NCBI GenBank assembly: GCA_034520885.1 | Contig: JAXHNE010000007.1 | Span: forward strand, 1 to 52,826 | Source: Candidatus Saccharimonadota bacterium | GTDB taxonomy: Bacteria > Patescibacteriota > Saccharimonadia > Saccharimonadales > JAXHNE01 | DNA length: 52,826 nucleotides | Reading direction: 5' to 3' | Part shown: positions 4,938-52,826 of the stretch, one piece after another | Layout of the letters: the number at the start of each line of letters is the position of its first letter | Position numbering within the stretch: the stretch's first letter is position 1 | The notes under the pieces: model-generated | What the model saw: only the letters and a program-made list of their open reading frames with translations | Told to the model about the DNA's origin: nothing | Databases searched by the model: none | Translations under genes and position numbers: made by a program

Positions 4938-5256
4938 TCCCGTAGTGAGCCCTTGATCACATTATGTTCTATGTTTATTTACTACAATCAGAGGAGCGCT
5001 ATAGGATATACGTCGGCAAAACGACCGATCTTAAAAGACGCGTGAAAGAACATAATGCAGGGCAAAATTCTTCGACAAAATCATACGGACCATGGACGCT
5101 TATATTTTACGAAGCTTACATAAATAGTAAAGATGCTGACAGGGGGAAAGGTACTTGAAGACGACACAAGGACGGCAAGCAATTCACAGAATGCTAAAAT
5201 GTCATCTGGAGAACTATAAAGAAATGAATTTTGCATATCAAGGATCTACTACGGGA
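4938..5256 (+). mobile_element. 319-bp mini-element: GIY-YIG ORF bounded by 20-nt imperfect terminal inverted repeats
   Basis: TCCCGTAGTGAGCCCTTGAT (4938-4957) against ATCAAGGATCTACTACGGGA (5237-5256), 16/20 complementary by eye. Lies between a promoter and the alaS ATG. Confidence 0.55.
4964..5158 (+). CDS. small GIY-YIG nuclease family protein, probably frameshifted (the -1 frame continues to TGA 5257-5259)
   Basis: N-terminal FYVYLLQS..IYVGKTTDLKRRVKEHN GIY-YIG signature. After a G5 run (5142-5146) the -1 frame reads ERYLKTTQGRQAIHRMLK, matching the C-termini of ORFs 49582.. and 50029... Confidence 0.7.
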   Translation: MFYVYLLQSEERYRIYVGKTTDLKRRVKEHNAGQNSSTKSYGPWTLIFYEAYINSKDADRGKGT

Positions 5257-7154
5257 TGACAGCTCAAGAGATTCGACGCGCTTATTTGGAGTTTTTTGAA
5301 ACCCGCGACCACGTGATTATTCCCCGTGCTTCGTTGGTGCCGACCGACGACCCGTCCACGCTATTTACCGGTAGCGGCATGCAGCCCATGATTCAGTATT
5401 TACTGGGCGAAAAGCATCCGGAAGGAGTGCGCCTTGCTGATAGCCAAGTATGTTTCCGGGCGGCGGACATTGATGACGTTGGAGACAACAAGCACACCAC
5501 CAGTTTTGAGATGCTTGGCAACTGGAGCTTGGGAGATTATTTTAAGGACGAGCAAATTCCCTGGATCGCGGAGTTTATGTTCGACGTCGTGGGGCTCGAC
5601 CCGGAGCGCGTATACGTGAGCTGCTACATTGGAAACCAAACTTATAGTATTCCGCGTGACGAACGGGCCATTGAACTGTGGAGCAAGGAGTTTGAAAAAC
5701 GCGGCATTGACCCTAAGGTCGTATCGCTGGGAAGCGCGGAAGACGGCGATAAAAAAGGCATGCAGGGCGGCCGCATTTTCTTGTATGACGGCAACGAAAA
5801 CTGGTGGAGCCGTAACGGTAACGAGGAAAACACGCTCGTGGGCGACCCGTGCGGACCGGACAGTGAAATGTTTTATGACTTCGGTGAAGAATTTCACGAC
5901 GAAACCGTGTGGGGCAAACCGCACCCGGCCAGTGACAGCCCCCGATTTTTCGAAATCGGCAATAACGTTTTCATGGGGTACCGTAAAACCGAAAACGGCT
6001 TCGAGCCGTTGGACAAACCCAATATTGATCACGGATCGGGTTTGGAGCGCATTGCGGCGGCCAGCCTCGGTGACCCGGACATTTTTAAGATTGACTTGTT
6101 ATGGCCAATTATTCAAAAACTAGAAAAATTGTCAGCGAAAACCTATGACGACCACCGCGAAGCCATGCAAGTAATCGCCGACCATCTAAAAGGCGCGGTG
6201 TTTTTAGTGGCCGATGGCGTGCGCCCCGGCAACAAAACCCAAGGGTACGTACTGCGCCGGCTGATGCGCCGGGCAATCCTAAAAGCTTTTGATTTGGGCA
6301 TTGAGCAAAACTTCGTGCAAGAAGCCGCCCCCGTGGTCGCCGAACTTTACCGCGCCGACTTCCCGGAAGTACTCAATCAGGAAGAAGAAATCATCGAGGT
6401 ACTTTTAAAAGAAGAAAAAACTTTCAAACGAACTTTGCGTAAAGGCATAAAAGAGTTTACGAAATTCGCGGACGACGGGAAGATTACGGGAAAAGAAATG
6501 TTCATGTTGTATGACACGTACGGCTTCCCGACGGAGTTGAGTTTGGAGGAAGTACAAAAACGTGAAATCACATTGTCAGATAATTGGCGCCAAGAGTTCG
6601 ACGCTGAAATGCAAAAACAGCGGGAGCGGAGCCAAACGGCCGCCAAAGGTACGTTCAAGGGCGGTCTTGGCGGGCAGAGCATGCAACACAAGAAGTACCA
6701 CACCGCGACACACCTGATGTATCAGGCACTTCGTGACGTGTTGGGCGATCACGTCGTGCAGCACGGCAGCAATATTACCGAAGAGCGGTTGCGGTTCGAC
6801 TTTTCGCATCCCGAAAAAGTGACACCGGAACAAATAGCTAAAGTCGAAGACATTGTTAACCGAGAAATTGCCAAAGATTTGCAAGTTTCGTGGGCGGAGT
6901 ATCCAACGGAAGAAGCTACCGGTAAGCTCGGTGCGCTCGGACAGTTCGGCGACCGTTACGGCGACAGCGTTAAGGTCTATTCCATGAAAGATCCCAAGGC
7001 GCCGGAAAACGAGCGGCCGTTCAGTTTTGAGATTTGCGGCGGGCCGCACGTTGACCACGCACGGCAATTAAGTGAGGGTGGAAAGAAATTCAAGATAACC
7101 AAGGAGCAGTCCAGTAGCGCGGGTATCCGGCGCGTTAAGGCCGTTTTAGCGTAA
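5256..7154 (+). CDS. alaS: alanine--tRNA ligase, compact form lacking the C-terminal C-Ala domain
   Basis: Class II AlaRS N-terminus (EIRRAYLEFFE..HVIIPRASLVP, FEMLGNWS). Editing-domain motifs HTATHLM and CGGPHV. Only 632 aa. Confidence 0.92.
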   Translation: MTAQEIRRAYLEFFETRDHVIIPRASLVPTDDPSTLFTGSGMQPMIQYLLGEKHPEGVRLADSQVCFRAADIDDVGDNKHTTSFEMLGNWSLGDYFKDEQIPWIAEFMFDVVGLDPERVYVSCYIGNQTYSIPRDERAIELWSKEFEKRGIDPKVVSLGSAEDGDKKGMQGGRIFLYDGNENWWSRNGNEENTLVGDPCGPDSEMFYDFGEEFHDETVWGKPHPASDSPRFFEIGNNVFMGYRKTENGFEPLDKPNIDHGSGLERIAAASLGDPDIFKIDLLWPIIQKLEKLSAKTYDDHREAMQVIADHLKGAVFLVADGVRPGNKTQGYVLRRLMRRAILKAFDLGIEQNFVQEAAPVVAELYRADFPEVLNQEEEIIEVLLKEEKTFKRTLRKGIKEFTKFADDGKITGKEMFMLYDTYGFPTELSLEEVQKREITLSDNWRQEFDAEMQKQRERSQTAAKGTFKGGLGGQSMQHKKYHTATHLMYQALRDVLGDHVVQHGSNITEERLRFDFSHPEKVTPEQIAKVEDIVNREIAKDLQVSWAEYPTEEATGKLGALGQFGDRYGDSVKVYSMKDPKAPENERPFSFEICGGPHVDHARQLSEGGKKFKITKEQSSSAGIRRVKAVLA

Positions 7155-37121: not shown

Positions 37122-39137
37122 CTAATCGGATAATTTTATTTTCCGTAGCAGTTGAGCGTTAGCTGCCACGATAATAGTGGACAGCGACATGAGTACCGCT
37201 CCAATAGCGGGGGACAGCACGAAACCAAAGCCCGACGTCACGCCGGCCGCCAAAGGTATCGCGATGGCGTTATAGCCCGTAGCCCACACAAGGTTTTGTA
37301 TCATCTTTTTGTAGGTCGCTTTGGAAAGTTTCACGACCTTGGCCACGCCCCGGGGATCGCTGCTGGCCAGTACGATGCCGGCGGATTCAATGGCGACGTC
37401 CGTACCCGCTCCGATAGCCATTCCAATGTCTGCCCGCGAAAGTGCCGGTGCGTCGTTCACGCCATCGCCGACCATTGCCACACGGCTGCCGTCGGCTTGC
37501 AGCTCTTTCACTATATCGGCTTTGTTTTCCGGTAAAACTTCCGCGAAATATTCTTTTATTCCCAGTTGTTTGGCTACCCATGCGGCGACCGGTTTCGAAT
37601 CGCCGGTTAACATGGCCACGCGCTTTCCGGAACGCTGCAACGTTGTTACCGCCTCCTTGGATTCCTCCCGAATAACGTCGGCGAGCATAACGGCTCCGAG
37701 CACTCGTTCATCAGATACTACGTATACCACCGTTTTACCTTCTTCGCCCGCATTGTCCACGGATTTTTTCAAGCCGCGGGGCGGATTGACGTTAAGCTCT
37801 TCAAGCAAACGGGGTCCACCAACGTAAATAGTTTTTCCACTTACCGTCGCCTTGGCGCCTCGGCCCGATAAAGCAGAAAAATTTTTGGCGTTCTCCAGAG
37901 AGATCTTTTTCTCCGTGGCGGAGTTGACGATGGCACGAGCGATAGGGTGTTCCGATTCCGCCTCAACACTTGCCGCAAGAGCGAGCAACTTATCGGTATC
38001 TTTATCGATCGCCACCGTATCCACTACGCCTTGCTCGCCCTTGGTTAGCGTACCGGTTTTATCGAACATCACGACATTAATGTTACGGGCGGACTCCAGC
38101 GCCATGCGTTCCCGTATCAACAACCCGTTGCGCGCGGCGCGGGTCGTGGAAATGGCCGTTACCAAAGGAATTGCCAGTCCAAGCGCGTGAGGGCAGGCGA
38201 TAATCAGCACCGTGACCACTCGTTCCAGTATGAATGCCGCCGATTGATTACTGAACAAGGTCCAGCCTATCATCGTAATAATCGCGGCACCAATGGCAAC
38301 GAATGTCAGGTAAAATGCCGCCCGATCCGCCAGAACTTGTGTTTTTGATTTGCTTTTTTGGGCGTCGTCAACCAGCTTCATAATTCCGGCCAGCGCCGTG
38401 TCGTCGCCCAGTTTGGTTACCTTGATCGTCAGCGAACCGCTGCCGTTGATGGTACCCGCGATCACGCCGTCCTTCCCGGTTTTCTTCACCGGCTTGGACT
38501 CGCCGGTAATCATGGATTCGTTGACATCCGATTCGCCTTTTGCCACCTCGCCGTCGACCGGTACGCTCGAACCGGGCCTTACCAGCACTTTATCGCCGAT
38601 CTTTAACTTTGATACGGCGATTTTTTTGGTTCCTTTCGTGGTTACCAACTCCGCTTCGTCGGGAAGCAGCTTCGCCAGCTCATCCAACGCTCCTTGAGCG
38701 TTACTGACGGAAGCCATTTCCAACCAGTGCCCGAGCAACATCACGGTAACTAAGGTGGCTAGCTCCCACCAAAAGTCCATTCCGTCTACGAGGTTCAGTG
38801 TGACGGCCAAGCTGTATCCAAAAGCTACGCTAATCGCCATTGATATAAGTGTCATCATCCCTGGCTGGCGAGCCGCGATTTCCGCCTTCGCGCTTTTAAG
38901 AAAAACCAAACCGCCGTAAACGAAAATGACAATGCCAAGAATCGCGGGAATGTACTCGCTGCCCGCGAAGGAGGGCGCAGTATAATTTAAAAGCCCCATA
39001 ATCGTTTCGGAGTAGAACAAAACGGGAACGGTCAGCGCAAAACTCAACCAGAACTTCTTTTTGAACATATTCGGGCTGTGCCCGGCATGTTTATCGTGAT
39101 CGTGTTCACCGCCGTGTTCATGATGCGAATGGTTCAT
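37122..39137 (-). CDS. copB: copper-transporting P1B-type ATPase, CopB-like (His-rich N-terminus, CPH motif, no HMA domain)
   Basis: MNHSHHEHGGEHDHDKHAGH N-terminus. TGES, CPH (IIACPHALG), DKTGTLT, GDGVNDAP. AAGGAAAG SD before ATG 39137 (the track ORF extends to 39233). Confidence 0.9.
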   Translation of the reverse strand: MNHSHHEHGGEHDHDKHAGHSPNMFKKKFWLSFALTVPVLFYSETIMGLLNYTAPSFAGSEYIPAILGIVIFVYGGLVFLKSAKAEIAARQPGMMTLISMAISVAFGYSLAVTLNLVDGMDFWWELATLVTVMLLGHWLEMASVSNAQGALDELAKLLPDEAELVTTKGTKKIAVSKLKIGDKVLVRPGSSVPVDGEVAKGESDVNESMITGESKPVKKTGKDGVIAGTINGSGSLTIKVTKLGDDTALAGIMKLVDDAQKSKSKTQVLADRAAFYLTFVAIGAAIITMIGWTLFSNQSAAFILERVVTVLIIACPHALGLAIPLVTAISTTRAARNGLLIRERMALESARNINVVMFDKTGTLTKGEQGVVDTVAIDKDTDKLLALAASVEAESEHPIARAIVNSATEKKISLENAKNFSALSGRGAKATVSGKTIYVGGPRLLEELNVNPPRGLKKSVDNAGEEGKTVVYVVSDERVLGAVMLADVIREESKEAVTTLQRSGKRVAMLTGDSKPVAAWVAKQLGIKEYFAEVLPENKADIVKELQADGSRVAMVGDGVNDAPALSRADIGMAIGAGTDVAIESAGIVLASSDPRGVAKVVKLSKATYKKMIQNLVWATGYNAIAIPLAAGVTSGFGFVLSPAIGAVLMSLSTIIVAANAQLLRKIKLSD

Positions 39138-39285
39138 TGTCGACTTTCCTTGTACCTTATTTCTTTTAATCTCTCCCCAATCATAGCAAAAACACCGGCC
39201 AAAGCTGTGTTTAAGTAGGGGTAAAATAAACAAAAACGCCGATTTACCAGGGTGTTTTATGGCCGACGTTACGCCTTTATATTTA

Positions 39286-39524
39286 CTACGTAACTTTTTG
39301 TTCTAGCTTTGTAACGCGCCGATCGCGATCTTTTAGCTGATTATCCGTGACTTCATTGCTGGTTTCTATTGCTTCTGCTACAGATGCGGAAAGGTCATCA
39401 ATCTTGTTCTCGACTCTATTAAGACGTATGTTGACCTCACCGAGTTGGTTAACAATAGTAGAAGCTTCTTGGGATATTGTCGCTGCTATGAACTGTTTTA
39501 AATCTTGATAACGTCATCATTCAT
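39286..39524 (-). pseudogene. frameshifted paralog of the coiled-coil gene 40529..40807
   Basis: ATG AAT GAT GAC GTT ATC AAG ATT TAA stops after 8 codons. A 1-nt shift continues QDLKQFIAATISQEAS.., homologous to MNDDTIQDLKQFIATTVSQQTS.. of 40529..40807. Confidence 0.75.
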
Positions 39525-39560
39525 ATGGTTATCCTAACATAGAGCATTTGTTGTCGGTTA

Positions 39561-39668
39561 GCTGCATGCCATGGCGACATGCCGTGGGCATATTTCTAGC
39601 CACTAGTGCTGATAAAGTAGGCATTTACAGATTGAAAAACTTGCAGGTCAGTTTAGTTTGTCGCCAGA
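39561..39668 (-). repeat. R1 spacer module, copy a
   Basis: GCTGCATGCCATGGCGACATGCCGTGGGCATATTTCTAGCC.. closely matches 40844-40885. Lies 3' of the stop of 39710..40420. Confidence 0.75.
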
Positions 39669-39709
39669 CTTTTAATACGAACTTATTATTAATCTGCTGG
39701 AATTAATAA

Positions 39710-40420
39710 CTATAACAAATGCACGGTTCTTATACTTCTACACCAGAATCCATAGTATTCAGCATCCATTTCCGATTTATCTCTTGGAACCATTAGAGCT
39801 ATGCCTTCAGGTTTCTGAGATTTATTCTTTAAGTCAGGATATGTATCCCATTCTTCACGAGTTATCAAACCAACAACCTCATATAAATTTTGCTTTCTAA
39901 AAACTCCATTAACATGCTTTATTAAGTTTGCGGCTGCAGTGACAAACTTCATGCTTGTTGATTCCGTAATCGAATCTAGTGAGTATTCGACAGACAATGC
40001 GTTGCTATGATTACCTATAAAGCTATTCTTTACTACTCCATCTCTCATTATGCAAACATCAGGAACGCCTAATGCAGCACAGATTGTTTTGCGTGTATCA
40101 TTCAGCTGGTCAGACAATATAAAAACCCCCGAACTTCTTCTGGTCGTATGTATGTCAATTATGTAATCTGGCTTAAACTCTTCTAATTGAGCCTCTAGTC
40201 TGGATAACTCAGTAGTTTCATGGTTTTCAAGTCCAGTATTGTAGATGCGATTCAAGTCACTATCGATAAAACGCTTATTTTTCTCATGTGCCCGTACGTT
40301 CCCTATAAAAAGCTGAATATATTTTTGTAGTTCAGGATGAGCCTTAATGAATGCATTATGCAAGTCTATTCCGTAAACCTCATCACCGTGAATCGCTGCA
40401 ACTATACCTACTTTTTTCAT
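39710..40420 (-). CDS. succinylglutamate desuccinylase/aspartoacylase (AstE/AspA, M14-like) family protein (cassette)
   Basis: Family motifs AIHGDEVYG, RFIDSDLNRIY, IIDIHTT. TGTTATGAT (40427-40435) 6 nt before the ATG. Confidence 0.7.
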   Translation of the reverse strand: MKKVGIVAAIHGDEVYGIDLHNAFIKAHPELQKYIQLFIGNVRAHEKNKRFIDSDLNRIYNTGLENHETTELSRLEAQLEEFKPDYIIDIHTTRRSSGVFILSDQLNDTRKTICAALGVPDVCIMRDGVVKNSFIGNHSNALSVEYSLDSITESTSMKFVTAAANLIKHVNGVFRKQNLYEVVGLITREEWDTYPDLKNKSQKPEGIALMVPRDKSEMDAEYYGFWCRSIRTVHLL

Positions 40421-47094: not shown

Positions 47095-47664
47095 CTAAGC
47101 TAATAAGTGGGGGTTTGTTTTTTGAAGCTCTATAAACTGGTCTAGGTATGGCTTTAAGTATTGTGATTGTTCAATTTTAGAGCGGAACTTATTCTCCCAA
47201 CCCTTCTGCGTAAGATTATACTTTTTCCATAGAGCAATATCTCCATGAATTAGCGTGAAGGCTGGCATTAATTTATCTAGACCGTATATGAATTTACTTT
47301 CTTCATCAGCCATTTTTTCATACTGCTCAATAAGCTCAGCAAAATTGCTAGTGAGCTCATCGTTTTTTAGTTTCAGTAAGGCTTGGTGCTCTTTATTGGA
47401 TTTCTCAGCTACTTGTTTATCATCAAGTGGGAACGCGTCTCCTGCGTAAACTTCTACTAAATCGTGGATGAGTGCGTATTTTATTACTAGGCTTAAATCT
47501 AAAGGTAGATTGTCTTTAGAAATGATAAGCCACGCCGCCATCGCAAGGTTATAAGAATGTTCGGTATCGTTTTCAGGCCTATTTAATTTCGGAATTGGTA
47601 TATTGCGTTCTACTGCTTGAAAATCAATTAAGATACTAATGAAGTTAGTAATGTTTACTGCCAT
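47095..47664 (-). CDS. HD-domain phosphohydrolase (YfbR-like 5'-nucleotidase family; cassette)
   Basis: H..HD..D pattern (TEHSYNLAMAAW, LIHDLVEVYAGD). TGTTAGACT (47671-47679) 6 nt before the ATG. Confidence 0.75.
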   Translation of the reverse strand: MAVNITNFISILIDFQAVERNIPIPKLNRPENDTEHSYNLAMAAWLIISKDNLPLDLSLVIKYALIHDLVEVYAGDAFPLDDKQVAEKSNKEHQALLKLKNDELTSNFAELIEQYEKMADEESKFIYGLDKLMPAFTLIHGDIALWKKYNLTQKGWENKFRSKIEQSQYLKPYLDQFIELQKTNPHLLA

Positions 47665-47744
47665 TACATTAGTCTAACAAAAAGAGACCTGTTCCGCCTC
47701 TTTAGTTAGAAACTATACTGTTTCAAAATTCTTTGGGGTATTCA

Positions 47745-47766
47745 TGGTGCGGGTGAGGGGACTCTA
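47745..47766 (-). repeat. exact 22-nt direct copy of the tRNA-Gly 3' end (att-like scar)
   Basis: TGGTGCGGGTGAGGGGACTCTA is identical to 47927-47948. Confidence 0.85.
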
Positions 47767-47890
47767 CCTACATGTCAAAAACCTTTGCTTTTTGCTCGCA
47801 GGCCGCGGCTCGCGGTCTCGCTGAATTGCTCGACAACGCTCCGCCCGTTAGAGTCCCACGAAACTAAAGCAGTTTAGTTTCTCTCACTCC

Positions 47891-47916
47891 AAGAAAAAAG
47901 CCCTACACAGGGTAGG
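47891..47916 (-). terminator. terminator-like hairpin + T-run directly after tRNA-Gly
   Basis: On the minus strand, CCTAC CCTGT GTAGG then GCTTTTTTCTT. Same design as after tRNA-Phe. Confidence 0.5.
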
Positions 47917-47926
47917 ACGTTTTTCT

Positions 47927-48002
47927 TGGTGCGGGTGAGGGGACTCTAACCCCTGGCCTCTTCCTTGGCAAGGAAGCGCTCTAACAGCTGAGCTACACCC
48001 GC
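47927..48002 (-). tRNA. tRNA-Gly (anticodon GCC), CCA encoded; atypical D-loop (no GG) and T-loop (TTAGAGT)
   Basis: 76 nt. Acceptor GCGGGTG/CACCCGC, D-arm GCTC AGCTGTTA GAGC, anticodon loop TTGCCAA, T-arm AGGGG TTAGAGT CCCCT. Confidence 0.85.
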
Positions 48003-48047
48003 ATGATGTGTAATTGTATTATAAACGAACATATCCAGTTATGCGTT

Positions 48048-48177
48048 GCTTCCTTGGCCTGGCAAGGATTCGCTCCTATGTCATTCGATCATACCATGTC
48101 GATATGACGTGGCATGGCCGTATCGAATGATACGGTAACAGCTGCCGCGTCATTCGACACGATTCAGCTACACCCGC
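48048..48177 (-). pseudogene. displaced, interrupted copy of the tRNA-Gly 5' half with two insertions in the D-arm region
   Basis: Anticodon-arm-like GCTTCCTTGGCCTGGCAAGGATTCGCTC (48048-48075), AACAGCTG (48137-48144) and CAGCTACACCCGC (48165-48177) are colinear with the real tRNA. The insertions carry TCATTCGA / TCGAATGA motifs. Confidence 0.65.
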
Positions 48178-48630
48178 TCGTCACAGTACGGCAACTTTTT
48201 TGCCACACCAAGACGTTACTTATGGTTTGGCAGTCATGTTTGCCGGCTGTTCCTCTTTCCGATCAAAAAATCCTCTTTTTGATCGGGGGACAGAACCTTT
48301 ATGTTTATAAAAATTCTGTCCCTGAATGTTTTACCAAGTCGGGGGTAGATTATAGCGGAGGTGAAAGGGGCGGGCAAGTGCTAAAACAATCACTAGTCGG
48401 AAGAGTCCTCAACTTTGGGCATATGACCCAAAACCCGCACAAGTCCATAATTGTTTTGAACGCACGAATCACCGAACTATAAATACACAAAAATCAAATT
48501 TAAAGCGGATTTAAATCTGATTTTTTATGATATGATACTTATGTCGGTCACTTCACGAAATTTGGCCGAACACGGGAGAAACCGAGGTCTCCCCTGTTGT
48601 ATAAATTACATAATAATAAAAGGACGAACT

Positions 48631-48807
48631 ATGGGCACCAAAAAAATTGGGCACGAACACCGGCGGATGGTCACGCAGAATAACTCCGGAAGCTACAGTA
48701 TTACCCTGCCGATTCAACTGATCCGTGAAGTCAGCTGGCAAAAAGGCCAACGCGTCACCGTGAGGCGCCAGGGCAAAAAACTGATCATCGAGGACTGGGA
48801 GCGGTAA
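48631..48807 (+). CDS. AbrB/MazE/SpoVT-type DNA-binding protein (antitoxin-like), 58 aa
   Basis: SYSITLPIQLIREVSWQKGQRVTVRRQGKKLIIE swapped-hairpin signature. AAGGA 6 nt before ATG 48631 (the track ORF starts at 48532). Confidence 0.6.
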   Translation: MGTKKIGHEHRRMVTQNNSGSYSITLPIQLIREVSWQKGQRVTVRRQGKKLIIEDWER

Positions 48808-48881
48808 GGAAAGCTCGCTCAAGATCCGCTTTTTGAGTGAGTTCTAACTGCTACACTGTTAATGTTAACCAAAGGAGGAGT

Positions 48882-49112
48882 ATGAGCTTATTCAGCGACA
48901 TTAAGGCCAAGGCCGATGCCAACGGCGACGGAAAGGTCAACAAAGACGACCTGGAAGCCCTGCGGGACGACATGAACGGCGATAAAATCGACCAACTAAA
49001 ATCGGTAGCCGACCAAAACGGTGACGGCAAGCTGACCCTGGACGACGTCAAGAACTTCGACTTGGGCGACACCTTTGACGAAGCCAAAAACTCCTTATTC
49101 GGCGACAACTAA
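48882..49112 (+). CDS. small EF-hand-like calcium-binding protein (two DxNGDGK loops)
   Basis: DANGDGKVNKDD and DQNGDGKLTLDD loops. Strong SD AAAGGAGGAG before ATG 48882. Confidence 0.65.
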   Translation: MSLFSDIKAKADANGDGKVNKDDLEALRDDMNGDKIDQLKSVADQNGDGKLTLDDVKNFDLGDTFDEAKNSLFGDN

Positions 49113-49174
49113 AACTCTTGACTGATTACTAATAAAAGTATATGCTTTAGGCTTGTCTTTAATAAAGAAGCCGG

Positions 49175-49474
49175 ATGGAGCATATGCCACAATTCGTTGA
49201 TCGGATTCCCGAGTCACGCGATGAACTAAAAAGGAACGAACTGCCGATTTGCCAGTACGATATTCGCGGTATTGCCCAAATTTGGGGTGAAGAAGTCGCT
49301 GAAATCGCGCGTTATAGCGCCCAACGCGTGAGGCGCCAAGGTGGTGTCAACCCACAGGCAGTGGAGTCAATCATTCCCGAAGGGCGTGACGGTATGCTCC
49401 ATGAACACGAACTATTTCGTTGTATCGGTAACTTATTAGTGTGGTGGGAGCATACGGATAAAAGCGGAAGCTAA
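49175..49474 (+). CDS. hypothetical protein
   Basis: 99-aa ORF. TTGACT..TATATG promoter-like motifs at 49117-49145. No recognisable motif. Confidence 0.45.
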   Translation: MEHMPQFVDRIPESRDELKRNELPICQYDIRGIAQIWGEEVAEIARYSAQRVRRQGGVNPQAVESIIPEGRDGMLHEHELFRCIGNLLVWWEHTDKSGS

Positions 49475-49506
49475 TTGTCTGGTTGTTTGCTACAATTAAC
49501 TCCGAT

Positions 49507-49539
49507 GGCGCTGTGGCGGAATGGTAACGCAAGGGTCTG
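49507..49539 (+). repeat. displaced copy of the tRNA-Cys 5' half (positions 1-34, ending inside the anticodon)
   Basis: GGCGCTGTGGCGGAATGGTAACGCAAGGGTCTG matches 49822-49854 with one mismatch (49533). Confidence 0.85.
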
Positions 49540-49821
49540 TCGTACCTACGGTAGATCTCCCGAAGGGAGACAAAACCCCACATGTATCACGTATACGTAT
49601 TAATGAGTAAAAAAACCGGGCGTTTGTATATCGGTAGTACAGCTGATGTTGTAAATAGGCTTAGACTTCACAACAACGGTAGGGTAAAATCTACCAAGGG
49701 TTATAGACCGTGGAAGCTACTTGAGCACTCTAGCTGTGATACACGATCCGAAGCCACGAGGCTTGAGCGACATTTAAAGTCTGGACAACAGCGAGAACGA
49801 CTCAAGAAAAAGTATAACCAT
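49540..49821 (+). mobile_element. 282-bp insertion carrying only a GIY-YIG ORF, bracketed by tRNA-Cys 5'-half copies
   Basis: See the flanking repeats 49507-49539 and 49822-49854. Stable hairpin TCTCCCGAAGGGAGA at its 5' end. Confidence 0.6.
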
Positions 49822-49842
49822 GGCGCTGTGGCGGAATGGTAA
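49582..49842 (+). CDS. small GIY-YIG nuclease family protein (86 aa); the last 7 codons overlap tRNA-Cys
   Basis: YHVYVLMSKKTGRLYIGSTADVVNRLRLHN..GYRPWKLL..EATRLERHLKSGQ GIY-YIG/URI signature. Confidence 0.8.
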   Translation: MYHVYVLMSKKTGRLYIGSTADVVNRLRLHNNGRVKSTKGYRPWKLLEHSSCDTRSEATRLERHLKSGQQRERLKKKYNHGAVAEW

Positions 49843-49896
49843 CGCAAAGGTCTGCAAAACCTTTTTTTGCCGGTTCAAATCCGGTCGGCGCCTCCA
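49822..49896 (+). tRNA. tRNA-Cys (anticodon GCA), CCA encoded
   Basis: 75 nt. Acceptor GGCGCTG/CGGCGCC (one G-U pair), anticodon arm AAGGT CTGCAAA ACCTT, T-arm GCCGG TTCAAAT CCGGT. Confidence 0.9.
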
Positions 49897-49909
49897 ATAT
49901 TAATAACAT

Positions 49910-49996
49910 GCGCGGGTGGTGGAATTGGTAGACATAGGAGACTTAAAATCTCCGGCCTAAAACGGCGTGCGGGTTCAAGTCCCGCCCCGCGCACCA
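49910..49996 (+). tRNA. tRNA-Leu (anticodon TAA), CCA encoded
   Basis: 87 nt. Acceptor GCGCGGG/CCCGCGC, anticodon arm GGAGA CTTAAAA TCTCC, long variable arm, T-loop GGTTCAAGTCC. Confidence 0.92.
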
Positions 49997-50082
49997 TTAA
50001 ACTTCGCTATCGCTTCGCTTAATTAGCTATGCACTATACCTATATTCTTAAAAGCATTTCACAAGAGGGTGCTATTTACATT
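49981..50082 (+). repeat. direct repeat copy 1: last 16 nt of tRNA-Leu(TAA) + spacer + first ~18 codons of the GIY-YIG ORF
   Basis: About 100 nt with only a few mismatches to 50366-50467 (offset 385 nt). Confidence 0.85.
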
Positions 50083-50277
50083 GGCAGTACTTCTGATTTG
50101 AAAAGGCGGATTGGTAAACATAACGCCAACCCGGACAGTAAACATGTTGATAAATATCGGCCTTGGAAAATAGAAAGTTATTTTGCTTTTTCGGATAAGA
50201 GAGAAGCTGAAAATTTTGAGCGTTATCTTAAATCAAGTTCTGGCAAATCTTTTCTAAAAAAGAGGTTGATATCATAA
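50029..50277 (+). CDS. small GIY-YIG nuclease family protein (82 aa)
   Basis: HYTYILKSISQEGAIYIGSTSDLKRRIGKHN..YRPWKIE..EAENFERYLKSSSGK signature. Confidence 0.8.
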   Translation: MHYTYILKSISQEGAIYIGSTSDLKRRIGKHNANPDSKHVDKYRPWKIESYFAFSDKREAENFERYLKSSSGKSFLKKRLIS

Positions 50278-50365
50278 AGAGGTTGATATCATACAGTTTT
50301 AAGCAAGCGATGACGGAGTTTAATAACGGCCGGAGCGAAAGGTAAGCGTAGCAAAGCGGAGTTTA

Positions 50366-50467
50366 CCCGCCCCGCGCACCATTAAACTTCGCTATCGCTT
50401 CGCTTAATTAGCTATGCACTATACCTATATTCTTAAAAGCATTTCACGAGAGGGCGCTTTTTACATT
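50366..50467 (+). repeat. direct repeat copy 2, preceded by a decayed tRNA-Leu T-arm (GCGGAGTTTACCCGCC)
   Basis: CCCGCCCCGCGCACCATTAAACTTCGCTATCGCTTCGCTTAATTAGCTATGCACTATACC.. is repeated from 49981. Confidence 0.85.
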
Positions 50468-50470
50468 AGA
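50414..50470 (+). pseudogene. truncated second GIY-YIG copy (only the first ~18 codons are retained)
   Basis: MHYTYILKSISREGAFYI, then unrelated sequence. Track ORF 50414..50698 is a fusion artefact. Confidence 0.7.
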
Positions 50471-50601
50471 TCGAAAACCCGCACTATGACCGCGGAGATG
50501 AACGCCTTATCCACAGATAGCTCGTTAGCTCGGTTGACTTTTAACCAAAACCACGATAAGTTTTATTTAACTTCACAAAATAAATTTAAAAAAGTGAAAC
50601 A

Positions 50602-52692
50602 ATGTTCCAAAAGAAAAGAACTACCAAAACCAGCAAAACCAAATCCAGCAAAACTCGTAAGCGTGCACCGGCCAAAAAAACCCGGAAAGGTTTACTGAAA
50701 AACCACAAAGGTTTTATCCCGTTGCGCGGTAAATCTCGTAAGTCAAAAAAGATAAAATTTGGCTCAAAAACTTCCAAAAAAACCAAGATGCTTGGCCTGG
50801 CTGGCGTATTGGCATTTGGCGCGGTAGGATCGTATTTATTGTTTTTTAGTTCCGCGCAAGTGGCGAACTCGAAGGTATATAAAAACGGTGTCCTGACAAA
50901 AATTGATCCATCCGGGCATACTATAACAAATACTGCTTCAGATGGTACGACCTTTGGAAGAGTTGAATTACCGGGCTTGATTGGTTATGCATGGGACTTG
51001 AGTTGGTCAAATGACGGCAGAAGGTTAGCGGTTTTCACTAAAACAGAGTCTGGACACGATGCCATGGTATTCATCTATGGCGGAGATTATACGCTGGAAA
51101 ATTCGTTTACTATACCAAGAGGAGATGACTATAATAGTGTTGGGATTGGCAGTATACAGTGGAACTCAAATGGTGATCAACTGCTTATAGGTTTAAGGAG
51201 TATAGGTTCTGGGATCGAGTCGTATGAGGCGATTATTGCCAACAAAGAAGGAAATATAACTTACAGAAATAAACTACAGCAGAATGATCACACCACATAC
51301 AGATCAGTTACTTGGATAGACCAAGGTAACAAAATTGCATATTTTGGAACTGGTGGAATTCGAACAATGTTTATTGACGGGAGTGCAGACCAGCTGGAAG
51401 TTCCGACTAGTCAGATACCAACAGCATTAGAGAGCCCAGAAGTCTTCCAGAATAGGATTTCCCTAATGCGATCTTCTAGGACGGGTGATGACGTTGCCTT
51501 TATATTCAATAATAACGTGTTTGTTATGGATACTAAGGATTTCGAGATTGAGCAAGTATCCTTTTCTGATAACGCTACTTCAGATAAACTCACCTGGTCA
51601 CCTGATGGAAAGCTCATTAATTATAGTCGACGATTAGAGGTGAGTCCAAATGCATCAAGCCAAGTTATTAACCTTTCTAAAGGAACAGATGAGGCCTTCG
51701 GAGGTCCTTTTAGTGCGGGTCACAGCTGGCGACCTATCTCCAATACCTCTCAACAAGTAGACTTCAACGGTGATGGCTTCAGCGATATATTCTTTTACGA
51801 ACCGGGCAGTGCAAAAGATAGTGTTTGGTACGGCTCTGATGGAATGAGCAGTAAGCGGCCCGCAACATTAGGACAGTTTGATGTCATTAACAGCGACAAC
51901 ACCCCAAGCATCAATGTAATCGGCACAAGCTACAAACCCATCCACGGCGACTTCAACGGTGATGGCTACACCGATATCTTTTGGTACGGCCCCGGTTCAA
52001 CCAATGACAGTATTTGGTACGGTGGCGCTGGGGATGGTGAGTTTACTCGTCATACTGCAGTGAACGTCGCCGGAAGTAACTACAACCCAGTTGCTGGCGA
52101 CTTCAACGGCGACGGCTTCTCCGACATATACTTCTATGCTCCCGGCGGAACAACCGACTACATTTGGTACGGCCAAAACAACAAAGATGGTAACTTTGAC
52201 AGTAAGCAGAAGAATATCAGTGGTGACTATAAGCCAGTGTCCGGCGACTTCAACGGCGACGGCTACGGCGATATATTATGGTATGCCCCGGGACAAGCGG
52301 CTGACTACGTTTGGTATGGAAGTGGTCAAAAGAATAACTTCACGAGTCGCCCAATAAGCGTCAACGTCAGTGCATACGAGCCATTCGGCGGCGACTTCAA
52401 CGGCGACGGCTTCTCCGACATATACTTCTATGCTCCCGGCGGAACAACCGACTACATTTGGTACGGCAAAAACAACAAAACCGGTAACTTTGACAGTAAG
52501 CAGAAGAATGTCAGGGGTGACTATAGGCCAGCATCCGGCGATTTCAACAGTGACGGCTACACCGATATCTTCTGGTACGGCCCCGGTTCAACCAACGATA
52601 GCATTTGGTATGGCGGCCCGGGAGATGTTCAGTTCGAACTGTTCACTGATGTAAATGTTGGTGGAGACGCGAAGCCGATACCTGGCAGATAA
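50602..52692 (+). CDS. large surface protein: Lys-rich N-terminal tail, TM anchor, beta-propeller-like region and six FG-GAP/VCBS-type repeats
   Basis: TM MLGLAGVLAFGAVGSYLLFF. Repeats of the form GDFNGDG[FY][ST]DI[FY][FW]Y.PG...D.[IV]WYG. 696 aa. Confidence 0.8.
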   Translation: MFQKKRTTKTSKTKSSKTRKRAPAKKTRKGLLKNHKGFIPLRGKSRKSKKIKFGSKTSKKTKMLGLAGVLAFGAVGSYLLFFSSAQVANSKVYKNGVLTKIDPSGHTITNTASDGTTFGRVELPGLIGYAWDLSWSNDGRRLAVFTKTESGHDAMVFIYGGDYTLENSFTIPRGDDYNSVGIGSIQWNSNGDQLLIGLRSIGSGIESYEAIIANKEGNITYRNKLQQNDHTTYRSVTWIDQGNKIAYFGTGGIRTMFIDGSADQLEVPTSQIPTALESPEVFQNRISLMRSSRTGDDVAFIFNNNVFVMDTKDFEIEQVSFSDNATSDKLTWSPDGKLINYSRRLEVSPNASSQVINLSKGTDEAFGGPFSAGHSWRPISNTSQQVDFNGDGFSDIFFYEPGSAKDSVWYGSDGMSSKRPATLGQFDVINSDNTPSINVIGTSYKPIHGDFNGDGYTDIFWYGPGSTNDSIWYGGAGDGEFTRHTAVNVAGSNYNPVAGDFNGDGFSDIYFYAPGGTTDYIWYGQNNKDGNFDSKQKNISGDYKPVSGDFNGDGYGDILWYAPGQAADYVWYGSGQKNNFTSRPISVNVSAYEPFGGDFNGDGFSDIYFYAPGGTTDYIWYGKNNKTGNFDSKQKNVRGDYRPASGDFNSDGYTDIFWYGPGSTNDSIWYGGPGDVQFELFTDVNVGGDAKPIPGR

Positions 52693-52711
52693 ATTTAAAA
52701 AGAGTAAAACA

Positions 52712-52826
52712 ATGTTCCAAAAGAAAAGAACTACCAAAACCAGCAAAACCAAATCCAGCAAAACTCGTAAGCGTGCACAGGCCAAAAAAGCCCGGAAACG
52801 TTTATTGATGAAAAATCGCAAAGGTT
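52712..52826 (+). CDS. 5' end of a tandem paralog of 50602..52692 (cut by the window edge)
   Basis: MFQKKRTTKTSKTKSSKTRKRAQAKKARKRLLMKNRKG. The first ~70 nt and ~20 nt upstream are identical to the 50602 gene. Confidence 0.7.
   Translation, partial: MFQKKRTTKTSKTKSSKTRKRAQAKKARKRLLMKNRKG

What the first reader, a model, noticed from the sequence alone, without database searches (positions are those of the whole stretch)
49981..50470. GIY-YIG unit after tRNA-Leu(TAA) flanked by ~100-nt direct repeats that include the tRNA 3' end; the second unit is truncated
Seen: 49981-50082 and 50366-50467 (offset 385 nt) are near-identical. Each consists of the last 16 nt of tRNA-Leu(TAA) including CCA, a 32-nt spacer, and the first ~18 codons of a GIY-YIG ORF. 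The first copy continues into a complete 82-aa ORF. The second breaks off into unrelated sequence. Upstream of the second repeat is a decayed T-arm (GCGGAGTTTACCCGCC against GCGGGTTCAAGTCCCGCC). The pattern resembles tandem insertion at a tRNA 3' end with restoration of the tRNA. It is the mirror image of the tRNA-Cys case, where the 5' half is duplicated.
Basis: partly seen in the sequence, partly recalled or inferred. Interest (0 to 1): 0.7.

Follow-up and report, generated by a model that had tools for sequence, protein, structure and literature searches.

The report
Tiny nuclease transposon behind tRNA genes
Behind a leucine tRNA gene of a Saccharibacteria (TM7) genome sit one and a bit copies of a roughly 370-base selfish DNA element that encodes only a small GIY-YIG nuclease, and relatives of it sit exactly at the 3' end of many different tRNA genes, each time next to a copy of that tRNA's last 13-16 bases; I found no description of such an element.

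Summary
The repeat is real: 49981-50082 and 50366-50467 match at 99 of 102 bases, and contigs from two independent sequencing runs support the tandem order.

It is not a 100-nt flanking repeat. It is 16 nt of tRNA-Leu(UAA), positions 61-76, followed by the first 86 nt of a second, truncated element.

Each element has about 26-nt terminal inverted repeats (TTAAACTTCGCT... / ...AGCGRAGTTTA) around a 97-105-aa Slx1/UPF0213-type GIY-YIG gene. In the window a 17-bp tandem duplication cuts that gene to 82 aa.

A DNA pattern taken from the 5' repeat found 75 loci in public metagenomes and genomes:
- 44 of 69 distinct element ends directly abut CCA (background 1.5%).
- 30 abut called tRNA genes (Ser, SeC, Met, Tyr, Pro, Leu, Glu).
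- After the 3' repeat comes a copy of the local tRNA's last 11-16 nt.
- ORF-less miniature copies, decayed copies and tandem arrays recur.

Best reading: a tRNA-3'-end-specific mobile element, probably inserted at a staggered break made by its own nuclease. The mechanism is inferred. No empty site was found, and six literature searches found no description.

The parts
49910..49996 (+). tRNA-Leu(UAA) gene, intact, CCA encoded; this is the insertion target
   Evidence: ARAGORN; Rfam tRNA 56.3 bits; acceptor stem GCGCGGG/CCCGCGC pairs perfectly
49981..49996 (+). Target copy 1: tRNA positions 61-76 (CCCGCCCCGCGCACCA: T-stem 3' strand, acceptor 3' strand, discriminator, CCA)
   Evidence: Identical 16-mer at 50366-50381
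49997..50024 (+). Element 1, 5' terminal inverted repeat TTAAACTTCGCTATCGCTTCGCTTAATT (two CTTCGCT motifs)
   Evidence: Conserved at DNA level in loci from many organisms; pairs with the 3' repeat in the ssDNA fold
50029..50277 (+). Element 1 GIY-YIG nuclease ORF, 82 aa. The catalytic core is intact; the C-terminal roughly 17 aa are lost to a frameshift
   Evidence: Pfam PF01541 E 2e-17; Y3, Y5, Y17, G19, R27, H31, N32, E64 conserved; relatives are 97-105 aa
50259..50292 (+). 17-bp perfect tandem duplication (AAAGAGGTTGATATCAT twice) that brings a stop codon into frame
   Evidence: the repeat finder family D6; removing one copy restores ...ISYSFKQAMTEFNNGRSER*, which aligns with relatives
50340..50365 (+). 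Element 1, 3' terminal inverted repeat AGGTAAGCGTAGCAAAGCGGAGTTTA; it contains the ancestral stop TAA at 50343-50345.
   Evidence: Same sequence class ends every full and miniature copy; pairs with 49997-50024
50366..50381 (+). Target copy 2: duplicate of tRNA-Leu positions 61-76
   Evidence: 16/16 identical to 49981-49996
50382..50467 (+). Element 2, 5' fragment only: 5' inverted repeat (50382-50409), 4-nt linker, first 18 codons (50414-50467). It is broken off at 50467/50468
   Evidence: 97% identical to 49997-50082; the sequence beyond matches no element; Pfam finds nothing in the 94-aa read-through ORF
49822..49896 (+). tRNA-Cys(GCA), neighbour in the same tRNA cluster; carries the second type of GIY-YIG unit on its 5' side
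   Evidence: ARAGORN; the same Cys-Leu(taa) pair is found in relatives L007, L083-L094
49505..49842 (+). Second subfamily unit (context, not part of the repeat): copy of tRNA-Cys positions 1-34 (49507-49539), 31-nt hairpin insert (49540-49570), positions 35-43 (49571-49579), GIY-YIG ORF g1 (49582-49842) running 21 nt into tRNA-Cys
   Evidence: the same architecture with host-specific tRNA parts is in L083, L093, L094

Best explanation
49997-50467 holds two tandem copies of a very small mobile element. The first is nearly full length (369 bp plus its 16-bp target copy). The second is a truncated 5' stump.

The element consists of about 26-28-nt imperfect terminal inverted repeats around a single gene for a roughly 100-aa Slx1/UPF0213-type GIY-YIG nuclease. 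It has no promoter of its own. It sits immediately after the last base of a tRNA gene, in the tRNA's orientation, so it is probably expressed by read-through from the tRNA promoter (inferred).

Shown by comparison:
- The family inserts exactly at the 3' end of many different tRNA genes, after CCA where CCA is encoded and after the discriminator where it is not.
- Each insertion is followed by a copy of the local tRNA from about position 61 to its end (16 nt, or about 13 nt without CCA).
- ORF-less miniature derivatives, decayed copies and tandem arrays are common.

Inferred mechanism:
- The nuclease makes a staggered break in the tRNA gene. One nick is at the T-loop/T-stem border (60/61) on the bottom strand. 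The other is at the end of the gene on the top strand.
- The element is joined in, and gap filling duplicates positions 61-76. The tRNA stays intact, and the target is regenerated behind the element.
- A regenerated target, or unequal crossing-over between the 16-nt copies, gives tandem units such as those in the window.
- Later a deletion removed most of unit 2, and a 17-bp slippage truncated the nuclease of unit 1. The window copy is therefore probably decaying.
For: Anatomy in the window.

Family ends:
- The closest protein relatives (60-73% identity) carry the same DNA ends. In L007 the element sits after the same tRNA-Leu(taa) and is followed by that host's own 16-mer, cccacctcgcgcacca, against cccgccccgcgcacca here.
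- A pattern that starts 2 nt inside the element found 47 metagenome and 28 genome loci.
- 44 of 69 distinct ends are preceded by CCA, against a 1.5% background.
- 30 ends abut an ARAGORN tRNA within 1 nt: Ser (four anticodons), SeC, Met, Tyr, Pro, Leu, Glu.

Local duplication after G[CT]G[AG]AGTTTA:
- 16 nt in the window, L007, L012, L016 (twice), L062, L076.
- 13 nt in L033 and L070, and 12-14 nt in L027, all three without CCA.
- 15-16 nt in L046, without CCA; 12-13 nt in L015; 11 nt in L019.
- Control scores on the upstream side are mostly 3-5 (higher only where a second element or tandem copy lies upstream).

Other hallmarks of mobility:
- Miniature TIR-only units of about 85-90 nt occur in L016, L027, L033, L046, L062. 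Tandem units occur in L016, L040, L051, L054, L070, L074.
- Of 57 ends that start TTAAAC, 14 keep an ORF of 90 aa or more, 7 are truncated or cut by the contig end, 12 are short forms and 24 are solo ends.
- Hosts span Saccharibacteria, other Patescibacteria, Thermodesulfovibrionia, Brocadiia and others. Two MAGs each carry two loci.

Protein: catalytic residues are conserved. Best structural matches are Slx1, UPF0213 BH0048 and At-HIGLE, which are structure-specific nucleases.

No integrase lies nearby. No promoter was found in the element.
Against: - No empty site, excision product or polymorphic insertion was found, so movement is inferred from distribution only.
- The duplication is long and not of fixed length (11-16 nt), and its right edge tracks the end of the tRNA gene with or without CCA. 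That is odd for a cut measured from a sequence motif and suggests recognition of structure or another process.
- No GIY-YIG enzyme is known to carry out transposition in prokaryotes (my own knowledge), and a 100-aa protein has no evident separate DNA-binding domain.
- In related Saccharibacteria the same tRNA-Leu end carries other small units without GIY-YIG or these repeats, yet with the same kind of duplication. The duplication may therefore come from a process that this nuclease does not own.
- 5' and 3' repeats do not co-vary within elements.
Confidence: 0.6

Rival explanations
1. Homing rather than transposition. The nuclease cuts element-free alleles of the same tRNA locus, and double-strand-break repair copies the element from a filled allele. 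The downstream 16-nt tRNA copy serves as a built-in right homology arm. Tandem units arise by unequal exchange between the 16-nt copies.
For: GIY-YIG enzymes are classic homing endonucleases. T4/T6 SegB is a free-standing GIY-YIG gene in a tRNA cluster, cleaves tRNA-gene DNA and drives tandem amplification through microhomology (PMC2330249; PMC13096335). Downstream copies sometimes differ by 1-2 nt from the upstream tRNA (L020, L031, L045).
Against: Homing does not create inverted-repeat ends, miniature derivatives or a fresh target duplication at each new tRNA type. The element is found behind at least seven tRNA identities, each with its own matching copy. The protein is Slx1/UPF0213-like and lacks the DNA-binding module of Seg/I-TevI enzymes.
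Confidence: 0.2
2. The 16-nt repeat is an att core. The unit is a miniature passenger integrated and excised by a tyrosine integrase supplied in trans. This resembles genomic islands that integrate at the T-loop sublocation of tRNA genes. On this reading the GIY-YIG gene is cargo or an addiction or competition factor.
For: Direct repeats running from the T-loop to the 3' end are the hallmark of integrase-borne islands at tRNA genes (my own knowledge of tRNA integration sites). Related Saccharibacteria carry other small units with the same repeat at tRNA-Leu(taa), one or two units depending on the sample.
Against: No integrase lies in the element or in the annotated neighbours. One conserved element would need a different attP for each of seven or more unrelated tRNA ends, yet both copies match the local tRNA. 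The terminal inverted repeats abut the repeat exactly, as in transposons.
Confidence: 0.08
3. A purely local event: a 385-bp segmental tandem duplication (or an assembly collapse or expansion) of an ordinary tRNA-linked housekeeping GIY-YIG gene, with no mobility involved.
For: Small UPF0213-type GIY-YIG proteins are widespread: 3229 clusters at E up to 1e-3. Slippage clearly operates here, as shown by the 17-bp duplication.
Against: Independent contigs support the arrangement. The same ends, the same position relative to CCA and host-specific duplications recur at many tRNAs and in several phyla, with miniature and decayed copies. A housekeeping gene would not behave this way.
Confidence: 0.04

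Closest known systems
Free-standing GIY-YIG homing endonuclease genes of T-even phages (SegB in the tRNA gene cluster)
   Same: A GIY-YIG nuclease gene embedded among tRNA genes; selfish spread; SegB cleaves tRNA-gene DNA and promotes tandem amplification of a tRNA-segB unit through microhomology (PMC2330249, PMC13096335).
   Different: Seg enzymes are 200 aa or more and carry a separate DNA-binding domain. They have no inverted-repeat ends, no target duplication, no miniature derivatives, and a phage rather than cellular setting. The protein here is Slx1/UPF0213-like. NCBIfam's group I intron endonuclease model scores only 17-19 bits against a cut-off of 56.
Bacterial insertion sequences with their miniature inverted-repeat derivatives (MITEs)
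   Same: Terminal inverted repeats, a direct duplication of the target, one small gene, ORF-less short derivatives, decayed copies, more than one copy per genome, and patchy distribution across phyla.
   Different: There is no DDE, HUH, serine or tyrosine transposase; the only protein is a GIY-YIG nuclease. The duplication is long (13-16 bp) and its edges are set by tRNA landmarks. Target choice is extremely narrow: the last base of a tRNA gene.
Integrase-borne islands and prophages at tRNA genes (T-loop sublocation)
   Same: An intact tRNA on one side and a partial 3' copy, from about position 58-61 to the end, on the other side. The tRNA 3' end serves as a safe, conserved landing site.
   Different: No integrase; about 0.37 kb instead of several kb; one element family uses many unrelated tRNA ends, each with a locally matching copy.
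Slx1 / UPF0213 (YhbQ, BH0048, EF2693) stand-alone GIY-YIG nucleases
   Same: Fold and catalytic motifs. Slx1 cuts branched DNA at junctions, which fits cut sites placed at the helix ends of a tRNA-gene cruciform or cloverleaf (inference).
   Different: Slx1 works with Slx4 in eukaryotic repair. The bacterial UPF0213 proteins have no assigned function (PDB entry names only). None has been reported as part of a mobile element in the papers I could search.

Membership tests
GIY-YIG nuclease superfamily (Pfam PF01541) | Profile match above the curated cut-off | tested here: met
   g2 63.6 bits, g1 60.4, g3 55.9, against a cut-off of 22.6
GIY-YIG nuclease superfamily (Pfam PF01541) | Catalytic motif residues (GIY Tyr, YIG Tyr/Gly, Arg, His-Asn, Glu) | tested here: met
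   Y3, Y5, Y17, G19, R27, H31, N32, E64 are invariant or nearly so in 21 and 30 sequences, and are present in the window's g2
Slx1 / UPF0213 (YhbQ-like) subgroup | Closest sequence and fold relatives are Slx1 and UPF0213 proteins; single-domain protein | tested here: met
   phmmer against PDB: 1zg2 E 0.003, 1ywl 0.045, 7wme 0.067. Foldseek on the AF2 model (pLDDT 84): 6seh, 1zg2, 7wme, 7cq2, 4xm5 at probability 1.0; UvrC only at E above 1
Free-standing or intron-borne GIY-YIG homing endonuclease (I-TevI/Seg type) | Separate sequence-specific DNA-binding domain joined to the catalytic domain | tested here: not met
   Whole protein is 97-105 aa. Beyond the core there is only one predicted helix, residues 83-93. 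TIGR01453 scores 17-19 bits against a cut-off of 56
Free-standing or intron-borne GIY-YIG homing endonuclease (I-TevI/Seg type) | Cleaves the element-free allele; spreads by break repair without target duplication | not testable with these tools
   Needs enzyme assays or crosses. The observed duplication and inverted repeats are not expected for homing
Group I intron with homing endonuclease in a tRNA gene | Group I ribozyme fold around the ORF, inserted within the tRNA | tested here: not met
   A permissive Rfam scan of 47500-52826 finds only the three tRNAs. The element lies after the CCA, not within the tRNA
Insertion sequence / MITE (inverted-repeat transposon) | Terminal inverted repeats at the exact borders | tested here: met
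   TTAAACTTCGCTAACGCTTCGCTTA against the reverse complement TAAACTTCRCTNCGYTWCGCTTA, about 21 of 26 in L031 (read by eye). Conserved in 16 full and 8 short copies; the two ends pair in the fold
Insertion sequence / MITE (inverted-repeat transposon) | Target-site duplication that differs with each insertion site | tested here: met
   The host-specific tRNA end is duplicated at Leu, Ser, Met, SeC, Tyr, Glu and Pro genes. Its length is 11-16 nt, so it is not fixed
Insertion sequence / MITE (inverted-repeat transposon) | Encodes a recognised transposase (DDE, HUH, Ser or Tyr) | tested here: not met
   The only ORF is the GIY-YIG nuclease
Insertion sequence / MITE (inverted-repeat transposon) | Filled and empty sites in close relatives, or demonstrated movement | tested here: inconclusive
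   No joints were seen in contigs of runs holding the window or L012.
Integrase-mediated tRNA-gene island | Tyrosine or serine integrase in or next to the element | tested here: not met
   None in the element. The 16 ORFs scanned between 36.6 and 52.7 kb (not every ORF there) are a P-type ATPase, TauE, methyltransferase, GNAT, kinase, HD, MazE-like and FG-GAP proteins, several with no match
Integrase-mediated tRNA-gene island | Direct repeat of the tRNA 3' part at both borders | tested here: met
   16 nt at 49981-49996 and 50366-50381

The most novel reading that the evidence does not exclude
This is a previously unrecognised class of prokaryotic transposable element. Its sole protein, a roughly 100-aa Slx1-like GIY-YIG nuclease, acts as the transposase. 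It would recognise the structure of tRNA genes (T-arm and acceptor end) rather than a sequence. It would insert precisely behind any tRNA gene with a 13-16-bp duplication, ride on tRNA transcription, and spawn MITE-like derivatives across Patescibacteria and other phyla.
Probability: 0.35. Interest if true: 0.9.

Novelty: new variant of a known kind. Interest (0 to 1): 0.75.

Why it matters
If the small GIY-YIG protein is what moves the element, this adds a nuclease family not yet counted among prokaryotic transposases. At about 370 bp it would be one of the smallest autonomous mobile elements.

Its targeting rule is also unusual: the exact end of a tRNA gene, whatever the tRNA. That rule is interesting mechanistically (how does a 100-aa protein read a tRNA gene?). 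It is also interesting as a possible site-specific insertion tool.

It gives a first functional context to part of the large UPF0213/YhbQ group of small GIY-YIG proteins that have no known role.

It explains odd tRNA-end fragments, CCA-ending pseudo-repeats and small ORFs that clutter tRNA clusters in Saccharibacteria and other candidate-phyla genomes and that confuse annotation.

Together with the tRNA-Cys subfamily, it suggests that tRNA genes in these reduced genomes are a battleground for several tiny nuclease elements.

Tried and rejected
- Assembly artefact: rejected from Logan contigs of two runs.
- Group I intron or other known RNA: the Rfam scan found only tRNAs.
- Integrase or other recombinase nearby: none.
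- 'Decayed T-arm' reading: rejected, because the same G[CT]G[AG]AGTTTA ends elements at tRNAs with quite different T-arms.
- Remnant of element 2 or a second target copy in 50468-50601: no similarity to any collected element.
- Own promoter in the 5' repeat: none above the shuffled expectation.
- Co-variation between the 5' and 3' repeats, which would argue for an RNA or ssDNA stem under selection: not seen; mismatches occur either way.
- The g3 site in AlaRS-linked relatives lacks the gene, but synteny differs there, so it is not a clean empty site.
- Literature: six full-text searches found no description of a GIY-YIG element with inverted repeats at tRNA 3' ends. The library lacks most subscription journals, so prior description cannot be excluded.

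Full report
**1. Observation**

The window carries tRNA-Cys(GCA) at 49822-49896 and tRNA-Leu(UAA) at 49910-49996 (Rfam tRNA 66.7 and 56.3 bits). The repeat finder and blastn give a 102-nt direct repeat, 49981-50082 against 50366-50467, offset 385, 99/102 identical, E 2.6e-44.

Copy 1 continues as an 82-aa ORF (50029-50277; Pfam GIY-YIG, 63.6 bits). Copy 2 loses all similarity after 50467. The three mismatches (50064, 50071, 50075) all lie in the last 19 nt.

The arrangement is not an assembly artefact. In run X1 (salt pan metagenome) separate contigs cover tRNA into repeat, repeat into ORF, ORF end into second repeat, and second repeat into downstream. The shared 82 nt has about twice the depth (25.9 against 10.5-13.2). 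In run X2 one contig spans 50257-50617 without a break.

**2. What the unit really is**

The closest relatives of the ORF (60-73% identity) are 97-105 aa. The window ORF is cut short by a perfect 17-bp tandem duplication at 50259-50292. Without it the frame runs to TAA at 50343-50345 and aligns over the family's C-terminal ...F(K/R)xAxxxFNNGR tail.

Three relatives fetched with their DNA share more than the protein. They have the same 5' sequence, TTAAACTTCGCTAWCGCTTCGCTTAATT, a few bases before the ATG. They have the same 3' sequence...AAGCG.A.C...G.GAAGTTTA. These two are imperfect inverted repeats of each other. In a single-strand fold of the window copy they pair and close the element (z -3.4).

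In L007 the element sits behind the same tRNA-Cys/tRNA-Leu(UAA) pair. It starts right after CCA and is followed by cccacctcgcgcacca, that host's own tRNA-Leu end. The window has cccgccccgcgcacca on both sides.

The window therefore reads as follows:

| Coordinates | Feature |
|---|---|
| 49910-49996 | tRNA-Leu(UAA) |
| 49997-50365 | element 1 |
| 50366-50381 | 16-nt copy of tRNA positions 61-76 |
| 50382-50467 | first 86 nt of element 2 |
| 50468 onward | unrelated DNA |

**3. A family, and where it sits**

I searched for a 24-nt degenerate pattern from the 5' repeat. It begins 2 nt inside the element, so it says nothing about the flank. It found 47 metagenome loci and 28 loci in species-representative genomes.

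- Of 69 distinct ends, 57 begin TTAAAC and 44 are immediately preceded by CCA, against a trinucleotide background of 1.5%.
- 30 ends coincide within 1 nt with the 3' end of an ARAGORN tRNA: Ser with four anticodons, SeC, Met, Tyr, Pro, Leu, Glu.
- Where both ends are present, the 3' repeat is followed by a copy of the local tRNA's 3' part:

| Duplication | Loci |
|---|---|
| 16 nt | window, L007, L012, L016 (twice), L062, L076 |
| 13 nt | L033, L064, L070 |
| 12-14 nt | L027 |
| 15-16 nt | L046 |
| 12-13 nt | L015 |
| 11 nt | L019 |

- In L027, L033, L046 and L070 the tRNA genes do not encode CCA. There the element follows the discriminator or the next base.
- The left edge is nearly always position 61, the first base after the T-loop.
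- The same test on the upstream side mostly scores 3-5, and higher only where a second element or tandem copy lies upstream.

Other features of the family:

- Miniature copies made only of the two repeats and about 30-40 nt between them exist (L016, L027, L033, L046, L062). So do internally deleted copies (L015, L054).
- Many copies are decayed. Of the 57 ends, 14 keep an ORF of 90 aa or more, 7 are truncated or cut by the contig end, 12 are short forms and 24 are solo 5' ends.
- A second unit starting right after the duplicated CCA, as in the window, recurs in L016, L040, L051, L054, L070 and L074.
- Hosts named in the genome collection include several Saccharibacteria, other Patescibacteria (Kazan, Doudnabacteria, Peribacteria), Thermodesulfovibrionia/Nitrospiraceae and Brocadiia. 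Two MAGs have two loci each.
- The window's own host is a Saccharimonadales bacterium. Its AlaRS has 72-73% identity to named Saccharibacteria proteins.

**4. The protein**

All GIY-YIG catalytic positions are conserved, including in the window copy. Sequence search of the PDB finds only UPF0213 proteins BH0048 and EF2693 and an SLX1 homologue.

An AlphaFold model of relative P0003 (pLDDT 84) is most like Slx1, BH0048 and At-HIGLE. UvrC's domain is far weaker. There is no extra domain, only one C-terminal helix. The group I intron endonuclease model is far below its cut-off.

The protein is therefore of the Slx1/YhbQ type, whose characterised members cut branched DNA. It is not of the I-TevI/Seg type. 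The wider family is large: 3229 clusters at E up to 1e-3 and 364 at E up to 1e-10. A 47%-identical relative also lies just behind a tRNA-Ile end, next to CTTCGCTTCG motifs.

**5. How it probably works**

Shown: a conserved inverted-repeat element with one nuclease gene; exact placement at tRNA 3' ends; a locally matching duplication; miniature and decayed copies; tandem units; wide, patchy host range.

Inferred:

- The nuclease makes a staggered break, at 60/61 on one strand and at the gene end on the other.
- Insertion and gap repair then duplicate positions 61-76. This keeps the tRNA intact and recreates the target, which invites a second insertion.
- Alternatively, unequal exchange between the 16-nt copies gives dimers.
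- Because the right edge follows the tRNA end with or without CCA, recognition of a folded tRNA-gene structure is more plausible than a ruler from a sequence motif. An Slx1-like enzyme might see such a structure.
- With no promoter of its own, the element likely depends on read-through from the tRNA.
- The window copies are both damaged, one by a 17-bp slippage and one by a deletion, so they are probably inactive relics.

**6. Rivals**

- Homing by break repair, as for SegB (PMC2330249; PMC13096335), explains a GIY-YIG gene among tRNAs and tandem amplification. It does not explain inverted repeats, miniatures, or new matching duplications at seven tRNA types.
- An integrase acting in trans would explain the repeat's extent, which is that of classical T-loop att sites. 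No integrase is near, and one element would need many att variants.
- A caution: related Saccharibacteria carry other small units, without these repeats or a nuclease, at tRNA-Leu(UAA) with the same kind of duplication, and one or two units depending on the sample. The duplication-forming step may therefore not be unique to this element.
- No empty site could be obtained.

**7. Novelty**

Six full-text searches found nothing that describes such an element. The library is incomplete, so this is absence of evidence only.

I file it as a new variant of known kinds, between homing-endonuclease genes and inverted-repeat transposons. There is a fair chance (about 0.35) that it is a new class in which a GIY-YIG nuclease is the transposase.

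Noticed in passing
window 49505-49896; L083-L096: The tRNA-Cys case is a conserved architecture of a second GIY-YIG subfamily. It consists of a host-specific copy of tRNA-Cys positions 1-34, a roughly 31-nt insert between G34 and C35, host-specific positions 35-43, and the ORF, whose stop abuts or overlaps an intact tRNA-Cys. The insert folds into a long hairpin with compensatory changes between hosts and a conserved AGATC loop. L083 and L094 also have a hairpin insert in the D-loop of the upstream copy.
   Followed up: partly
window 4938-5258: A third GIY-YIG gene (4964-5158, truncated to 64 aa) lies between mnmA and alaS. It is flanked by a 22-nt inverted repeat (GATCCCGTAGTGAGCCCTTGAT / ATCAAGGATCTACTACGGGATG) whose 3' arm overlaps the alaS start. 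Relatives with 76-78% identical AlaRS have no GIY-YIG there (L097-L100), but gene order differs.
   Followed up: partly
L083/L084/L086/L089 about 2066-2430; L093 2533-2650; L094 2012-2330: In related Saccharibacteria the 3' end of tRNA-Leu(UAA) carries other roughly 110-160-nt units. They contain a terminator-like hairpin and an antisense T-arm-like piece, with no GIY-YIG and no TTAAAC repeats. Each is followed by a 14-19-nt copy of the tRNA end. The site holds one unit in L083 and two in L084.
   Followed up: partly
L035 21-76 and 991-1047; L052 8327-8383; L082 203-324: Two to four head-to-tail copies of a 33-nt piece of the 5' inverted repeat, each ending in ...AGCCA or ...AGCTA, lie right behind tRNA-Ser(UGA). 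It looks as if the repeat end itself recreates a CCA-type target, or slips.
   Followed up: no
window 50582-50698 and 52692-52808: A 117-nt repeat (93-95% identical) covers the upstream 20 nt and the lysine-rich N-terminus of the 696-aa FG-GAP repeat protein (50602-52692) and the start of the next gene. This suggests tandem paralogues. The protein also has internal roughly 294-nt repeats (51756-52634).
   Followed up: no
window about 38000-40000: G+C drops from about 0.50 (1-38 kb) to about 0.41 (40-47 kb and 50-52 kb). The tRNA cluster with the GIY-YIG units lies in the low-GC part.
   Followed up: no
window 48532-48807 and 48837-49112: Two small ORFs lie upstream of the tRNA cluster. One has a MazE/AbrB-type antitoxin domain (E 8e-6). 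The other has an EF-hand/dockerin-like calcium-binding pair.
   Followed up: no
L101-L103 about 760-1500: A more distant relative (P0065, seen on 70 or more contigs) lies about 70 nt behind a tRNA-Ile end, next to CTTCGCTTCG motifs. A second, different GIY-YIG ORF lies just upstream. In L102 and L103 the tRNA is no longer called.
   Followed up: partly
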